64,000 nt of DNA from an uncultured virus (IMG/VR IMGVR_UViG_3300045241_000137). Its lineage: Duplodnaviria > Heunggongvirae > Uroviricota > Caudoviricetes. Each line of letters begins with the position of its first letter. Positions within the stretch are counted from its first letter, which is position 1. The stretch lies in IMG/VR virus record IMGVR_UViG_3300045241_000137. One strand, given 5' to 3'. Below the pieces are notes generated by a model. The model did no database searches. It saw only the letters and a program-made list of their open reading frames with translations, and was not told the DNA's origin. The translations under genes were made by a program, and so were the position numbers. Below are positions 26,259-41,498 of the stretch, piece by piece.

Positions 26259-27134
26259 TCACGGGACCAGGTCGATCAGGACGCCGGCCTGGGTGTGGTT
26301 GTCGTCGGCCGAGGACTGGCGGCCGATCCAGTTGAACAGGTAGGGACGCTCCGCGATGAAGCGGAGGTCGTTGTTGGAGCGGTCGAGGGACTGGGCGTAG
26401 TCGCCGATGATCTGGATCTCGGGGTCGCGGTACACCTGGATCGGACCGGAGGCGAACGCCCATGCCTGGTCGGCCGCGGGTGCGCTCTCCCCGAACGGGT
26501 ACGCCCCGATGTAACCGGCACCGACCGCAACAGGGGTTCCGAGCACGGTCTGCGCCTGCCTGCTGCCGACCCTGACGGGAGTGACCAGATACTCCGATGC
26601 CCACTCCGCGTAGATGGCTGGAGTGGCGTGGATGATCCCTGTCCCGTTCAGCGCGATCGCGTCCTCGAGGAGTTGCAGCGCACGGTGGCCGCTGACGACG
26701 CCGCCGCCGAGAGTTTCCATGTTCACGTCGCCGAGGTATGGGCCTAGGGTGGAGTGGCCGTCACCCGTTGCGAGGACCCGTTCGACGGCCGCTGTCTCGT
26801 ACACCTGGAACGCGAGTTTCAGCCGGTCGGTCAGCCACGCTTGGTTCGAGCCGATACCGCTGGCGGTGCAGAACGCGTCCATGTAGACCGTGAAGCGGCC
26901 GGTGATGTTGTCGCCCATCGGTTCGTTCTGCGACTTGATCCGGTCGGTGCCCTGCGAGCACGGGTCCTGCGTGTGCGCAGGGCCGTTCGGGTAGTCCTCG
27001 ATCCACGCCCCGGCCAGCCAGCGGTTGCTGGTCGGGACGATGAGGTCTGCCGCGTCTAGCAGCGTGAACTGACGCGGGGAGGGGACTGGGGCTTGCAGGT
27101 TCACAAGCCCCGCCGGTGCCACGATCGTTGTCAC
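26259..27134 (-). CDS. Second capsid protein (pentamer/penton-type)
   Basis: 291 aa directly after the major capsid gene. FTVY...C...G...E..AVERVL, GIIHA, T.LGTPVAVGAGY and IAERPY resemble the 'major capsid pentamer' family of Rosebush-like actinophages (recalled, not searched). Confidence 0.7.
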   Translation of the reverse strand: MTTIVAPAGLVNLQAPVPSPRQFTLLDAADLIVPTSNRWLAGAWIEDYPNGPAHTQDPCSQGTDRIKSQNEPMGDNITGRFTVYMDAFCTASGIGSNQAWLTDRLKLAFQVYETAAVERVLATGDGHSTLGPYLGDVNMETLGGGVVSGHRALQLLEDAIALNGTGIIHATPAIYAEWASEYLVTPVRVGSRQAQTVLGTPVAVGAGYIGAYPFGESAPAADQAWAFASGPIQVYRDPEIQIIGDYAQSLDRSNNDLRFIAERPYLFNWIGRQSSADDNHTQAGVLIDLVP

Positions 27135-27176
27135 CGTTCAGTCCCCTCTCTCACGTCGGTTGTCAGCGTCCTTCCG

Positions 27177-39400: not shown

Positions 39401-41498
39401 TCGAGCCTGTCGATCCCGTAGCGCCCGTCGACCCGGTCTGTCCCGTGATCCCGGTGATTCCCGTGACGCCCGTCGGCCCGGTCAGCCCGGTGATGCCCGT
39501 ACTGCCTGTTGCACCTGTTGGGCCAGTCGCCCCGGTCGCACCCGTGCCGCCTGTCGTACCGACTCGTCCTGGCTGGCCGTCAAGACCGTCGAGGCCGGCC
39601 TCGCCCGTGCTGCCTGTCGGGCCTGTCAATCCAGTCGGCCCCGTGATGCCGGTGATACCCGTGATCCCCGTGATGCCGGACGGTCCGGTTGTGCCAGTTG
39701 ACCCCGTTGCGCCTGTCGCTCCAGCGGTGCCTGCCGTTCCTGTCGCTCCCGCGGCCCCGGTTTCTCCGGTCGGTCCGGTAATCCCTGTCGGGCCTGTAAG
39801 ACCAGTGATCCCGGTCACGCCTGTCGGCCCGGTCAGACCTGTTGAGCCTGTGGCCCCGGTGGATCCGGTTGGCCCCGTGCTGCCTGTTGCGCCAGCGGAA
39901 CCGGCTGGCCCCGGCATCCCGTCGAGGCCGTCCTGGCCGGGATCTCCGGTCGCGCCTGTCGCGCCTGTCGCGCCTGTCGCGCCAGTTGCTCCGGTCTGTC
40001 CGGTCGGGCCTGTCGGACCCGTGACGCCCGTGATTCCGCTCGAGCCGGTAGGTCCTGTAGATCCGGTGCTGCCCGTAGCCCCCGTAGTACCCGCCGAGCC
40101 CGTCTGCCCGGTCGCACCCGTCATGCCTGTCGTCCCGGCCGGACCCGTTTCCCCTGTCGGCCCAGTCGCGCCCGTCGATGACGCCTCACCCGCAGGACCC
40201 GTGGAACCCGTCGACCCGGAGGGTCCCGTGGAACCTGTTGTCCCGGTTGGACCCGTCGATCCGGTGACGCCCGCTCCGGTCGGTCCGGTAGATCCCGTCA
40301 CTCCCGTCAGACCCGTAGCGCCCGTCGTTCCCGTCGTGCCCGTTCCGCCAGTCGAACCTGTTGCGCCGCTGGGTCCGGTCATCCCGGTCCGCCCGGGAAG
40401 CCCGTCCAAGCCGTCAAGTCCGGCGTCGCCCGTCGCTCCCGTCACCCCGGTCGCGCCGGTCGCTCCGGTAACGCCAGCTCCAGTCGGGCCCGTCATCCCC
40501 GTGGCTCCCGTGGCACCCGTCGTTCCTGTGGCTCCCGTCGCTCCCGATCCCGGCCCCGGAGGTCCTGTCGCTCCCGTCGGCCCGGCCGGACCTGTCGGTC
40601 CCTGGCTACCGCTGCCTCCACCGCCATTCGCGAGCGCGTTGTTCACAAGCACCCCCGCTTGGACATGCTCATCATCCGAGGGGTCCTGGCGGGAGATCCA
40701 GTTGAACAGGTACGGGCGCTCGGCGATCACCGCCACATCGTTCATCGACCTGTCAAGGATCTGCTCGTAGGCTGCCGCGGGCACTTCGATCGATCCACGC
40801 ACGATCTCGATCGGCCCGGAGGCGAATGCCCACTGCTCATTCGCACCCAACGGCGGCGCCGTGTCCGGCAGCACACCGATGTAGCCGGGGCCGACGGCAA
40901 TCGGGGTGCCGCGCGTCGTGTAGGTGAGCGCACCGATCGTTTTCGTCAGATGCAGCGAATCCCATGCGACCACAGTTTCGGGCGAGGCGTGGATGATCCC
41001 CGAGCCGTGCAAGCTGATGTTGTTCTCGAGCAGCCGCAGCGCTGTCACGGGATCGACAGCGGCTCCCGCAAGGATCTCCATGTTGGAGTCTCCGAGATGT
41101 GCCCCGAGTTCTTGGAGTCCGTCGGCTGTCGCGAGAACACGTTCGACCGCATCGCCTTCGTAGACACGGAACGATTCCTTCAGTCTGGCTATGAACTCCG
41201 TCGGGTCTGGGCCGACCGATTGCGCCGTGCACGTTGCGGTCAGGTAGACGTTGAAGATCCGCGACTGCTGCGACGCGATCACGCCGCCGCCGTCTTTTAT
41301 CCGGTCGGTTCCTACGCTGCACGGGTCGTGCACCGAAGCCGGTCCCGGTGGGGTTCCGGCGCTCCATCCGCCGCCGAGCCATCCGTGCCGTTCGGGAAAC
41401 CCGACGACCGACGCGACAGCGAGCAGGGCATCGGTGCGGGGTTGCGGGAGCGGCGCTTGGAGCGGGACGAACCCCACCGCCGGCACCGAAACAGTCAC
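36444..41498 (-). CDS. Pentamer-type capsid paralogue fused to a giant collagen-like fibre (putative vertex spike)
   Basis: Residues ~1-287 are co-linear with ORF 26259-27134. They are followed by G-X-T collagen tracts, three related globular repeats and a Gly-rich tip domain. Confidence 0.85.
38986..39021. repeat. Perfect 9-bp tandem repeat (GTGATCCCT)x4 in the collagen tract
   Basis: Encodes GIT repeats on the minus strand. Confidence 0.85.

What the first reader, a model, noticed from the sequence alone, without database searches (positions are those of the whole stretch)
26259..41498. Duplicated pentamer-type capsid protein fused to a ~1400-aa collagen spike
Seen: the first ~287 aa of the 1684-aa ORF (about 40640-41498) align end to end with the 291-aa capsid gene at 26259-27134. 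Examples: [83 protein letters not shown]...DD.H.QAGVL. A GGGGSGS linker follows, then collagen tracts and globular tip domains. Recalled knowledge: some actinophages use separate hexamer and pentamer capsid proteins. Inference: the capsid has mixed vertices, in which fibre-bearing subunits co-assemble with plain ones (for example 3 fibre + 2 plain, solving the trimer/pentamer symmetry mismatch) and display very long head spikes built directly into the shell. I do not know of a described example.
Basis: partly seen in the sequence, partly recalled or inferred. Interest (0 to 1): 0.9.

Follow-up and report, generated by a model that had tools for sequence, protein, structure and literature searches.

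The report
Capsid vertex protein fused to collagen fibre
A soil phage carries two copies of its capsid corner protein, and one copy is fused to a roughly 200-nm collagen-like fibre with a tail-fibre-type tip, so the head itself probably carries built-in host-grabbing fibres.

Summary
The first 286 residues of the 1684-aa ORF (36444-41498, minus strand) align end to end with the 291-aa gene at 26259-27134: 48% identity, E 4e-77.

The shared domain is a confident HK97-fold capsid domain (pLDDT 93; Z 14.5 to HK97). The 291-aa gene follows a 586-aa hexamer capsid gene. Its family profile matches the penton genes of Rosebush and of a Jabs-like M. abscessus prophage. The preprint on phage Jabs shows by cryo-EM a T=9 capsid in which separate proteins build hexons and pentons.

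The fusion keeps the residues that align with the penton knob Tyr and with the Cys that bonds pentons to hexons. It keeps 59 of 63 strongly conserved penton columns.

It belongs to a well-supported clade of 20 second penton paralogs whose C-terminal add-ons vary: short Cys tails, an 85-aa beta domain, FN3, and here collagen.

An independent assembly spans the junction. A fold of the plain protein with the fusion domain scores 0.79 against 0.00 for controls.

The best reading is a penton-built head fibre, probably three fusion plus two plain subunits per vertex. That arrangement is already described for tectivirus PR772 (P5/P31), but I found no report of it for HK97-fold phages. No virion data exist.

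The parts
36444..41498 (-). 1684-aa ORF (P0001): a penton-type HK97 capsid domain fused to a collagen-like fibre
40635..41498 (-). N-terminal HK97-fold domain (aa 1-288), a paralog of the penton protein. Y85 and C90 align with the knob Tyr and the penton-hexon disulfide Cys of the Jabs-type penton protein.
   Evidence: 48% identity to P0002. AF2 pLDDT 93.2, pTM 0.89. At least 338 Foldseek matches at E<=0.001; the 36 rows shown are HK97-fold capsid or encapsulin entries. VIA Z 14.5, rmsd 3.8 A, 218 aligned to HK97 2fte_G. Residue alignment. Keeps 59 of 63 conserved columns.
40602..40634 (-). Gly/Ser-rich flexible linker (about aa 289-299) between the capsid domain and the first regular collagen triplets
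   Evidence: pLDDT falls to 58 in the last 10 residues of the model.
38904..40619 (-). Collagen-like tract 1 (aa 294-865): 188 G-X-Y triplets with four breaks of 1-3 residues, mostly G-X-Thr; five copies of an acidic motif of the form G-[DE]-x-G-[LQ]-D-G-L-D-G
38184..38903 (-). Two globular modules of about 120 aa (aa 866-1105)
   Evidence: 28.8% identity to the Pelagibacter phage HTVC010P tail fibre. No Pfam family.
37941..38183 (-). Collagen-like tract 2 (aa 1106-1186, 27 triplets)
37578..37940 (-). Third globular module (aa 1187-1307)
37434..37577 (-). Collagen-like tract 3 (aa 1308-1355, 16 triplets)
36447..37433 (-). Tip (aa 1356-1684). Its first ~100 aa resemble Gordonia phage minor tail proteins. 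A glycine-rich domain (Pfam Gly_rich_2) lies at aa 1472-1679.
   Evidence: tblastn: 145 phage records, 39-51% identity in the 25 listed, over tip residues 6-104. PF21722 at 33 bits against a cutoff of 24.3. Atlas lead 0.94. phrog_863.
26259..27134 (-). Plain penton capsid protein MCPp (P0002, 291 aa), with a strong ribosome-binding site
   Evidence: phrog_779. 134 homologs. hhalign to prophiT36-1 gp58 (prob 95.7%, E 1e-8) and to Rosebush gp16 (prob 96.3%, E 1.7e-9). RBS.
27177..28937 (-). Hexamer capsid protein MCPh (586 aa) with an acidic N-terminal scaffold-like part. C273 and C345 align with C271 and C347 of the Jabs-type MCPh.
   Evidence: phrog_777. 860 phage records, many annotated 'major capsid hexamer protein'..
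41637..44225 (-). MuF-like / head maturation protease fusion (862 aa)
44484..46406 (-). Portal protein
   Evidence: phrog_776
41503..41640 (-). 45-aa hydrophobic small ORF between the protease gene and the fusion gene. Small ORFs sit at the same place in Rosebush and prophiT36-1.
30020..32855 (-). Sugar-modification genes inside the 12.5-kb block that lies with the fusion gene between the small ORF and MCPh: GT2 glycosyltransferase, a WbqC-like protein and a PIG-L deacetylase

Best explanation
The window is most of a ~69-kb genome of an uncultured soil actinophage. Like mycobacteriophage Jabs and the Rosebush group, it builds its capsid from two HK97-fold proteins. A 586-aa protein (MCPh) forms the hexons and a 291-aa protein (MCPp, P0002) forms the eleven pentons.

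The 1684-aa protein is a second penton paralog. Its N-terminal 288 residues are a complete, shell-competent penton subunit. Its C-terminus continues through a ~13-residue flexible linker into a collagen-like shaft that should form a trimer. The shaft is about 200 nm long with three globular nodes. It ends in a tip made of modules otherwise found in actinophage tail fibres.

The most likely working is as follows. Three fusion chains trimerise through the fibre. Their three capsid domains take three neighbouring places in a penton, and plain P0002 fills the other two. The fibre is thereby built covalently into the shell and projects from the five-fold vertex. It then acts as a long-range adhesin that catches the host surface before the tail engages.

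Shown here: the homology, the fold, the kept contact residues, the paralog clade, and the reality of the junction. Inferred: incorporation into pentons, the 3:2 stoichiometry, trimerisation, outward projection, and the adhesin role.
For: 1. Homology and fold.
- 48% identity over the whole penton protein, E 4e-77.
- High-confidence HK97 fold. The best VIA rows are HK97 chain G; that chain G is the penton subunit is recalled, not from a call. The model's residues 19-286 cover gp5 128-382, so the capsid domain ends where the linker starts.

2. Dual-capsid-protein system.
- MCPh matches 860 phage records, many annotated 'major capsid hexamer protein', Rosebush included.
- Gordonia phage Thing3 annotates the hexamer/pentamer gene pair.
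- The P0002 family profile matches the gene that follows MCPh in Rosebush and in prophiT36-1.
- prophiT36-1 gp57 and gp58 have the lengths (594 and 257 aa) and the residues (C271, C281, C347, C563; Y92, C97) that the Jabs preprint names.

3. Kept shell contacts.
- P0001 Y85 and C90 align with the knob Tyr and with the Cys that bonds penton to hexon. C90 is invariant in 115 of 115 sequences.
- Window MCPh keeps the partner Cys, C273.
- P0001 keeps 59 of 63 columns that are >=90% conserved in plain penton proteins. No column separates the two clades.

4. Paralog clade.
- A 20-row clade (SH-aLRT 99) holds P0001, and all 20 rows carry C-terminal extensions of 10-290 aa or more. Of the 95 other rows, 88 have at most 4 residues there.
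- The extensions all begin at the same junction. They are Cys-rich tails, an 85-aa all-beta domain behind a floppy linker, and FN3 plus another domain (P0122).
- Six pairs of plain and extended proteins share a contig length and a source. This suggests that both genes are kept together.

5. Predicted plain/fusion pair.
- ipSAE 0.79 (runs 0.79, 0.77, 0.80) against 0.00 for the best of 3 controls. That mark was reached by 116 of 157 solved complexes and 2 of 215 mismatched pairs.
- The runs agree in at least 91% of contacts, and the partner's pLDDT is at least 80.
- The interface is the usual HK97 intra-capsomer one and includes P0002:54 touching P0001:Y85.

6. Context.
- The gene lies in the head module, and the tail module has its own 607-aa collagen-like fibre.

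7. Precedent.
- The PR772 penton is three P5 plus two P31.
- Phage 7-7-1 has one long fibre per penton.

8. Junction.
- It is confirmed by an independent assembly.
Against: - There are no virion, expression or structural data. The phage is uncultured.
- This is the only collagen fusion found. Searches for long forms are weak, because metagenome assemblies break at collagen repeats and only the best 150 of 741 hits were visible.
- The fusion gene has a weak ribosome-binding site and P0002 a strong one. That fits a minor component better than 33 fusion copies against 22 plain ones.
- The gene is not next to MCPh/MCPp. It lies in a 12.5-kb block that Rosebush and prophiT36-1 lack.
- Relatives whose add-ons are small monomeric domains would not need mixed pentons, yet seem to keep the plain gene too. 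Mixing is therefore not forced by the trimer argument alone.
- The complex prediction may pass merely because HK97 capsomers are well known and the two chains are paralogs. It does not separate mixed from pure pentons.
- That the C-terminus points outward near the five-fold axis is inferred from the Jabs hexon turret, not measured.
- Co-occurrence in relatives rests on equal contig lengths only.
- The tree is the quick one; the careful search did not finish.
Confidence: 0.55

Rival explanations
1. Segregated pentons. P0001 forms pentons on its own at some vertices, possibly a special one. One triple helix forms and two chains are left over or otherwise bundled. P0002 forms the remaining pentons.
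For: Relatives carry small monomeric add-ons (85-aa domain, FN3, Cys tails) that fit five-fold symmetry and need no mixing. A weak RBS suggests low copy number. Single head filaments at one vertex are cited for phiCbK and for two Vibrio phages in the 7-7-1 paper.
Against: Five 1400-aa collagen chains cannot all pair in threes, and unpaired chains would be loose. No mechanism is known that marks one vertex of an isometric shell. No column separates the two clades, which argues for interchangeable subunits. The plain/fusion interface is predicted with confidence.
Confidence: 0.15
2. Re-used anchor. The capsid-like domain no longer sits in the shell. It serves to dock an otherwise ordinary collagen-like tail fibre somewhere else, for example on top of pentons, at the neck or on the tail.
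For: Everything after residue 300 looks like tail-fibre material. There are 33 PHROG families, mostly tail fibre. The tip matches Gordonia minor tail proteins and Gly_rich_2.
Against: The gene is in the head module, and the tail module has its own collagen-like fibre. The domain keeps 59 of 63 conserved penton columns, including the knob Tyr and the hexon-bonding Cys. A domain freed from the shell would be expected to drift. Relatives carry small FN3 and all-beta add-ons of the kind recalled (not from a call) for capsid decoration.
Confidence: 0.12
3. Artefact or dead gene. The fusion is a mis-assembly across repeats, or a recent accidental fusion that is not expressed or not used.
For: The collagen part is repetitive, and the independent assembly breaks it into four pieces with low-depth alternative joints. 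Only one such fusion was seen. The protein itself was not returned by the protein searches.
Against: A 31.9-kb contig crosses the junction with no difference, at the same depth (17-19) as the rest. The frame stays open for 5055 nt with gene-like GC3 of 0.76-0.82. The junction lies exactly where 19 relatives attach other modules. The capsid domain is as conserved as the plain proteins.
Confidence: 0.05

Closest known systems
Jabs / Rosebush-type dual major capsid proteins (MCPh hexons + MCPp pentons, T=9); annotated in SEA-PHAGES genomes as 'major capsid hexamer/pentamer protein'
   Same: A 586-aa MCPh is followed by a ~290-aa MCPp. Both have or match the HK97 fold. The residues aligned with the penton knob Tyr, the penton Cys and the MCPh N-arm and E-loop Cys are kept. 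Gene order is portal, protease, small ORF, MCPh, MCPp.
   Different: Jabs is described as having no decoration proteins and one penton protein. Here a second penton paralog carries a 1400-aa fibre. Only about 24-36% (MCPh) and about 23% (MCPp profile) identity to those phages. The intra-hexon Cys pair C281/C563 is not kept.
Tectivirus PR772/PRD1 vertex: P5 spike + P31 penton protein
   Same: The spike protein's N-terminal domain is a homolog of the penton protein and is followed by a collagen-like triple helix and a distal knob. Three spike chains plus two plain penton chains make the penton and so solve the 3-on-5 mismatch (PMC6750898). This is the arrangement proposed here.
   Different: The fold and lineage differ: jelly-roll, membrane-containing, tailless Varidnaviria against HK97-fold tailed phage. 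The P5 collagen-like motif is about 17 residues (124-140), against 693 here. No sequence relation was tested or is expected.
Capsid vertex fibres of Agrobacterium phage 7-7-1 (and the head filament of phiCbK)
   Same: An HK97-fold T=9, disulfide-rich capsid with one long flexible fibre (88-114 nm) from the centre of each of the 11 pentons, used for first attachment to the host (PMC12796354).
   Different: The 7-7-1 fibre protein is unidentified and is thought to dock non-covalently on a separate linker protein. Its pentons are made of the single capsid protein. The target there is the flagellum; the target here is unknown.
Collagen-like minor tail proteins / tail fibres of actinophages with a C-terminal glycine-rich domain (Pfam PF01391 + PF21722)
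   Same: G-X-Y tracts, globular nodes and a Gly_rich_2 tip. The first part of the tip is 39-51% identical to Gordonia minor tail proteins in the 25 listed records.
   Different: Those proteins are encoded in tail modules and start with tail-attachment domains. This one is in the head module and starts with a capsid subunit.
Non-covalent capsid decoration and head-fibre proteins (SPP1 gp12 collagen-like trimer at hexon centres, phi29 gp8.5, T4 Hoc; recalled, with a search listing)
   Same: Outward-facing, often trimeric or Ig-like modules on HK97-fold shells that help adsorption or stability.
   Different: They are separate proteins that bind a finished lattice. Here the module is a covalent extension of a lattice subunit.

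Membership tests
HK97-fold major capsid protein | HK97 fold (N-arm, E-loop, spine helix, P- and A-domains) | tested here: met
   AF2 model of aa 1-300: pLDDT 93.2, pTM 0.89. Foldseek: at least 338 matches at E<=0.001; the 36 rows shown are HK97-fold capsid or encapsulin entries. VIA: Z 14.5, rmsd 3.8 A, 218 aligned to HK97 2fte_G; 472 of 992 chains at Z>=8.
Penton-specific capsid protein (MCPp) of dual-MCP actinophages | Sequence homology to the protein shown or annotated as the penton protein | tested here: met
   The P0002 family profile matches prophiT36-1 gp58 (prob 95.7%, E 1e-8, 229 columns) and Rosebush gp16 (prob 96.3%, E 1.7e-9). tblastn hits Thing3 gene 22, 'major capsid pentamer protein'. 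P0001 aa 1-286 is 48% identical to P0002. That gp58 equals Jabs MCPp is inferred from its length and from Y92/C97.
Penton-specific capsid protein (MCPp) of dual-MCP actinophages | Residues for the intra-penton knob (Tyr) and the penton-hexon disulfide (Cys), with a partner Cys in the MCPh N-arm | tested here: met
   P0002 Y84/C89 and P0001 Y85/C90 align with Y92/C97. The Cys is invariant in 115 of 115 sequences. MCPh C273 aligns with C271. Bond formation itself was not tested.
Penton-specific capsid protein (MCPp) of dual-MCP actinophages | Short protein (about 257-291 aa) encoded directly after MCPh | tested here: not met
   This is met by P0002 (26259-27134, directly after MCPh). The fusion is 1684 aa and lies 7.5 kb upstream of MCPh.
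Penton-specific capsid protein (MCPp) of dual-MCP actinophages | Occupies the five-fold vertices of the virion | not testable with these tools
   Needs virions. The only support is a predicted capsomer-type interface with P0002 (ipSAE 0.79 against 0.00 for the best of 3 controls; the mark was reached by 116 of 157 solved and 2 of 215 mismatched pairs).
PR772/PRD1 P5-type vertex spike | N-terminal domain homologous to the phage's own penton protein, then a collagen-like stalk and a distal domain | tested here: met
   The architecture is compared with passages of PMC6750898.
PR772/PRD1 P5-type vertex spike | Jelly-roll penton fold / membership of Tectiviridae | tested here: not met
   The fold is HK97. 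The genome encodes portal, terminase, tape measure and tail genes. It works like P5 but is not a member.
PR772/PRD1 P5-type vertex spike | 3 spike : 2 plain subunits per penton | not testable with these tools
   Five chains of 290-300 residues exceed the 1000-residue limit of the complex tool. Needs localized cryo-EM or virion stoichiometry.
Collagen-like tail fibre / minor tail protein with Gly_rich_2 | Collagen repeats plus a C-terminal glycine-rich domain | tested here: met
   PF01391 at E 2.6e-72. PF21722 at 33 bits against a cutoff of 24.3.
Collagen-like tail fibre / minor tail protein with Gly_rich_2 | Encoded in the tail module with a tail-attachment N-terminus | tested here: not met
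   The gene lies between the protease gene and MCPh, and its N-terminus is a capsid domain. A separate 607-aa collagen-like fibre lies in the tail module.

The most novel reading that the evidence does not exclude
A lineage of dual-capsid-protein actinophages keeps a second penton gene as an exchangeable display platform at the capsid vertices, to which Cys plugs, beta domains, FN3 modules or whole fibres are attached. In this phage the platform carries a ~200-nm G-X-Thr collagen fibre that is as long as or longer than the ~190-nm tail. The neighbouring phage sugar-transferase genes may O-glycosylate it. It would be built into the shell as three fusion plus two plain subunits per penton. If so, the head rather than the tail makes first contact with the host, and HK97-fold phages reached the tectivirus P5/P31 answer to the 3-on-5 symmetry mismatch independently.
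Probability: 0.3. Interest if true: 0.9.

Novelty: new variant of a known kind. Interest (0 to 1): 0.8.

Why it matters
Separate hexon and penton capsid proteins in an isometric tailed phage were called unprecedented in the Jabs preprint, dated 2026-08-31 in the copy read. This window adds a further layer: a second penton paralog used to display modules at the vertices, with a full-length fibre in this case.

If confirmed, it would be the first HK97-fold capsid subunit with a covalently built-in fibre. It would also be a convergent counterpart of the tectivirus heteropentameric vertex. Three practical points follow:

- It gives a concrete, testable model for how trimeric fibres are seated on five-fold vertices in tailed phages. 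That question is still open for phage 7-7-1, whose fibre protein is unidentified.
- It points to a natural, modular site, the C-terminus of the penton protein, for displaying large cargo on phage heads.
- It suggests that host range in these phages may be set partly by the head.

Tried and rejected
- Near-identical DNA: megablast of 26000-42000 against 50,697 phage records found nothing.
- Other long fusions: none among proteins of 926-2947 aa. Among 509-2000 aa only P0122 (570 aa, FN3) was found. In the exhaustive HMMER search the longest of the 150 listed hits (741 in all) is 570 aa.
- PDB by sequence: no match for P0002, and only a chance-level one for MCPh.
- Pfam: nothing for P0002 or for the 85-aa add-on.
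- Context of relatives: 7 viral and 18 metagenome loci were fetched, mostly short or distant. Genome contigs gave none. None of the 27 loci searched, apart from the window, holds two copies.
- The listing of cluster members gave no accessions, so the pairing of paralogs on one contig rests on equal contig lengths.
- No whole genome is held for the window.
- Earlier findings: two look-ups, nothing found.
- Promoter and terminator scan of 25000-44500: 1 and 5 sites against 1.3 and 8.4 expected, so nothing usable.
- Tandem repeat finder: only short 9-54-nt periods inside the collagen part.
- The careful tree did not finish in 300 s, so the quick tree was used.
- The actinophage capsid dendrogram preprint had nothing on separate penton proteins in the passages read.
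- Literature searches for a capsid-collagen fusion in tailed phages returned none.
- A tail-fibre-only reading was considered and ranked low; see the rival explanations.
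Full report
**Observation.** On the minus strand the window holds a 1684-aa ORF (36444-41498, P0001) and a 291-aa ORF (26259-27134, P0002).
- BLASTP aligns P0001 1-286 with P0002 1-288: 141 of 292 identities (48%), E 4e-77.
- Pfam sees only collagen repeats in P0001 (E 2.6e-72) and nothing in P0002.
- PHROGs places P0002 in phrog_779 (function unknown). It gives P0001 33 families, mostly tail fibre, all through its collagen and tip parts.

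**Anatomy of the long protein.**
- aa 1-288: capsid-like domain.
- About aa 289-299: Gly/Ser linker.
- aa 294-865: 188 G-X-Y triplets with four tiny breaks.
- aa 866-1105: two globular modules of about 120 aa.
- aa 1106-1186: 27 triplets.
- aa 1187-1307: a third globular module.
- aa 1308-1355: 16 triplets.
- aa 1356-1684: the tip.

Thr fills the Y position in most triplets (110 of 141 in the longest run). Pro is rare (6%). An acidic motif of the form G-[DE]-x-G-L-D-G-L-D-G recurs seven times, twice just before a globular module. The 693 G-X-Y residues would span about 198 nm at 0.286 nm per residue. The 1260-aa tape measure implies a tail of about 189 nm at 0.15 nm per residue. Both conversion factors are recalled, not computed.

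The tip holds Pfam Gly_rich_2 (33 bits against a cutoff of 24.3, with an Atlas lead). Its first ~100 residues match 145 phage records, 140 of them Gordonia. The 25 listed are 39-51% identical, and 22 of them are annotated 'minor tail protein'. The middle modules match a Pelagibacter phage tail fibre weakly.

**Is the fusion real?**
- One public run, probably the source sample, holds the stretch.
- In Logan's independent assembly of that run a 31.9-kb contig covers 39954-41700 with no difference. It therefore crosses the junction at about 40634 by some 680 nt.
- The collagen part is split into four pieces that overlap at repeats, at even depth (17-19).
- Two low-depth alternative joints exist, one skipping 984 nt. 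The tract's length is therefore less certain than its existence.
- The frame is open for 5055 nt with GC3 of 0.76-0.82.

**What the shared domain is.**
- An AlphaFold2 model of aa 1-300, built on 115 sequences, has pLDDT 93.2 and pTM 0.89.
- Foldseek returns at least 338 PDB matches at E<=0.001. The 36 rows shown are HK97-fold capsid or encapsulin entries.
- VIA-align gives Z 14.5 (rmsd 3.8 A, 218 aligned) to HK97 2fte_G, with 472 of 992 chains at Z>=8.
- Model residues 19-286 cover gp5 128-382, so the fold ends where the linker begins.
- Several top rows are chain G. I recall chain G to be the HK97 penton subunit. Rows within 1 Z are tied, so this is only a hint.

**The capsid system.**
- Gene order on the minus strand: terminase (54055-55707), sugar-transferase genes, portal (44484-46406), MuF/protease (41637-44225), a 45-aa hydrophobic ORF, P0001, about ten genes, a 586-aa 'major head protein' (27177-28937, phrog_777), P0002, major tail protein, adaptor, tape measure, Dit-like protein, further tail proteins. 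The ten genes include a GT2 transferase, a WbqC-like protein and a PIG-L deacetylase.
- The 586-aa protein matches 860 phage records at 24-36% identity over its C-terminal ~330 residues. Many are annotated 'major capsid hexamer protein', and Rosebush is among them.
- tblastn with the P0001 domain finds 50 records at 28-30% identity. In Gordonia phage Thing3 the hit is gene 22, 'major capsid pentamer protein', directly after gene 21, 'major capsid hexamer protein'.
- The Jabs preprint (10.64898/2026.07.24.740622; abstract and passages read) reports a T=9 capsid of 80 hexons of MCPh (594 aa) and 11 pentons of MCPp (257 aa). Both adopt the HK97 fold. A Y92 knob sits inside pentons. Disulfides link MCPp C97 to MCPh C271 and MCPh C271 to C347. 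A hexon turret is made by the MCPh C-termini.
- The M. abscessus prophage prophiT36-1 has a 594-aa and a 257-aa gene pair at the same place. Those genes carry C271, C281, C347 and C563, and Y92 and C97. I therefore take them as Jabs-type proteins; this is an inference.
- The P0002 family profile aligns to the 257-aa protein (prob 95.7%, E 1e-8) and to Rosebush gp16 (prob 96.3%, E 1.7e-9).
- In these alignments P0002 Y84/C89, and hence P0001 Y85/C90, fall on Y92/C97. Window MCPh C273 and C345 fall on C271 and C347. C281 and C563 are not kept.

**A clade of second penton paralogs.**
- P0002 has 134 homologs of 160-510 aa.
- A quick maximum-likelihood tree of 115 rows was used, because the careful search did not finish. 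It shows a 20-row clade (SH-aLRT 99) that holds P0001, inside 10- and 11-row sets (each at 98).
- All 20 rows have C-terminal extensions of 10 residues or more. Of the other 95 rows, 88 have at most 4; the other seven have 6-11.
- The extensions start at the same point. Ten rows carry short tails, most with one or two Cys. Eight carry an ~85-aa domain. One carries FN3 plus about 190 aa (P0122). One carries the collagen fibre here.
- A model of P0085 (pLDDT 90.2) shows the HK97 domain, a floppy linker (286-293) and a small all-beta domain.
- Six plain/extended pairs share contig length and source: 3429, 20663, 56926, 44814, 15067 and 3427 nt. That suggests both genes are kept in one genome. Two of those contigs are only 3.4 kb, so there the genes lie close together.
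- Close relatives of the window phage carry different add-ons. P0008 with P0085 has the 85-aa domain, and P0009 with P0099 has a Cys tail. The add-on is therefore swapped between relatives.
- P0001 keeps 59 of the 63 columns that are >=90% conserved among plain proteins. No column separates the two clades at 70% in each. The extended paralogs are thus under the same constraints as shell subunits.

**Predicted contact.** Folding the P0002 family with the P0001-domain family gave ipSAE 0.79 (runs 0.79, 0.77, 0.80), against 0.00 for the best of 3 controls.
- That mark was reached by 116 of 157 solved complexes and 2 of 215 mismatched pairs.
- The runs agree in at least 91% of contacts, and the partner's pLDDT is at least 80.
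- The interface is the usual HK97 neighbour contact. The P0001 N-arm lies on the P0002 A and P domains. The P0002 E-loop lies on the P0001 spine helix and P domain. P0002:54 touches P0001:Y85.
- HK97 capsomers are well represented among solved structures and the chains are paralogs. The pass therefore shows likeness and compatibility. It does not show that mixed pentons form.

**How it most likely works.** A collagen shaft needs three chains and a penton has five places. The simplest arrangement is three fusion subunits in neighbouring places plus two plain P0002.
- This is what cryo-EM found for tectivirus PR772. Three P5 (an N-domain homologous to the penton protein P31, a collagen-like stalk and a knob) sit with two P31 (PMC6750898, passages).
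- Long fibres from each of the 11 pentons, used for first attachment, are known from HK97-fold phage 7-7-1. Its fibre protein is unknown and is thought to dock non-covalently (PMC12796354, passages).
- That the penton C-terminus points outward near the axis is inferred from the Jabs hexon turret.
- The tip's kinship with tail-fibre modules and the fibre's length suggest long-range host capture.

**Points against.**
- There are no virion data.
- P0001 has a weak ribosome-binding site and P0002 a strong one.
- The gene lies in a 12.5-kb block that Rosebush and prophiT36-1 lack.
- Relatives with monomeric add-ons would not need mixing.

**Comparison and novelty.** Searches for a capsid-subunit/collagen fusion in tailed phages found none, either in the proteins or in the literature. 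The library lacks most subscription journals. The principle is known from Tectiviridae and the parts are known families. The combination in an HK97-fold shell, and the paralog display platform, appear new. I rate it a new variant of a known kind.

Noticed in passing
window 41503-41640 (-): A 45-aa, almost wholly hydrophobic ORF lies between the MuF/protease gene and the fusion gene. Its start overlaps the protease gene's stop (ATGA). Rosebush gp14 (57 aa) and prophiT36-1 gene 56 (59 aa) sit at the same place. Its role is unknown.
   Followed up: partly
window 47767-52881 (-) and 29406-32855 (-): The structural region holds two groups of sugar-modification genes. One group has a GT, a galactosyl transferase, a methyltransferase and a second GT. 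The other has a GT2, a WbqC-like protein, a PIG-L deacetylase and a weak GT-like ORF. With Thr at most Y positions of the collagen repeats, this suggests O-glycosylation of the fibre or the virion. Virion glycosylation in mycobacteriophages is recalled, with only search listings seen.
   Followed up: partly
window 13071-14894 (-): A separate 607-aa collagen-like tail fibre gene lies in the tail module, after the tape measure, a Dit-like gene and two further tail genes. The phage therefore has collagen-like fibres encoded in both its head and its tail modules.
   Followed up: partly
window 38960-39945: The independent assembly holds a low-depth (3.8 against 17-19) alternative joint that skips 984 nt of the collagen tract, with 3 other letters in between. 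It keeps the reading frame. It may be a shorter-fibre variant in the population or a repeat artefact.
   Followed up: no
window 36444-40619 (-), P0001 aa 357, 518, 632, 710, 788, 1175, 1341: An acidic motif of the form G-[DE]-x-G-L-D-G-L-D-G recurs seven times in the collagen tracts, twice directly before globular modules. It may be a registration or metal-binding site.
   Followed up: no
window 27177-28937 (-), MCPh aa 1-~245: The N-terminal ~245 residues of the hexamer protein are acidic and Ala/Glu-rich, like a built-in scaffolding (delta) domain. The penton proteins lack such a part.
   Followed up: no
window 33022-36441 (-): Five ORFs directly downstream of the fusion gene have no Pfam or PHROG family and somewhat lower GC: about 160-172, 176, 417, 281 and 101 aa. 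They may be fibre assembly factors or morons.
   Followed up: partly
L010 991-1611 (+): In a 1.6-kb metagenome contig, an extended paralog with a Cys-rich tail (63% identical to the P0001 domain) is followed by a 206-aa ORF of unknown family.
   Followed up: no
window 1123-11151 (-): The left part of the window holds replication and recombination genes: a DnaB-like helicase, SbcC- and SbcD-like proteins and a RecT-like protein. An endolysin lies at 11764-12636.
   Followed up: no
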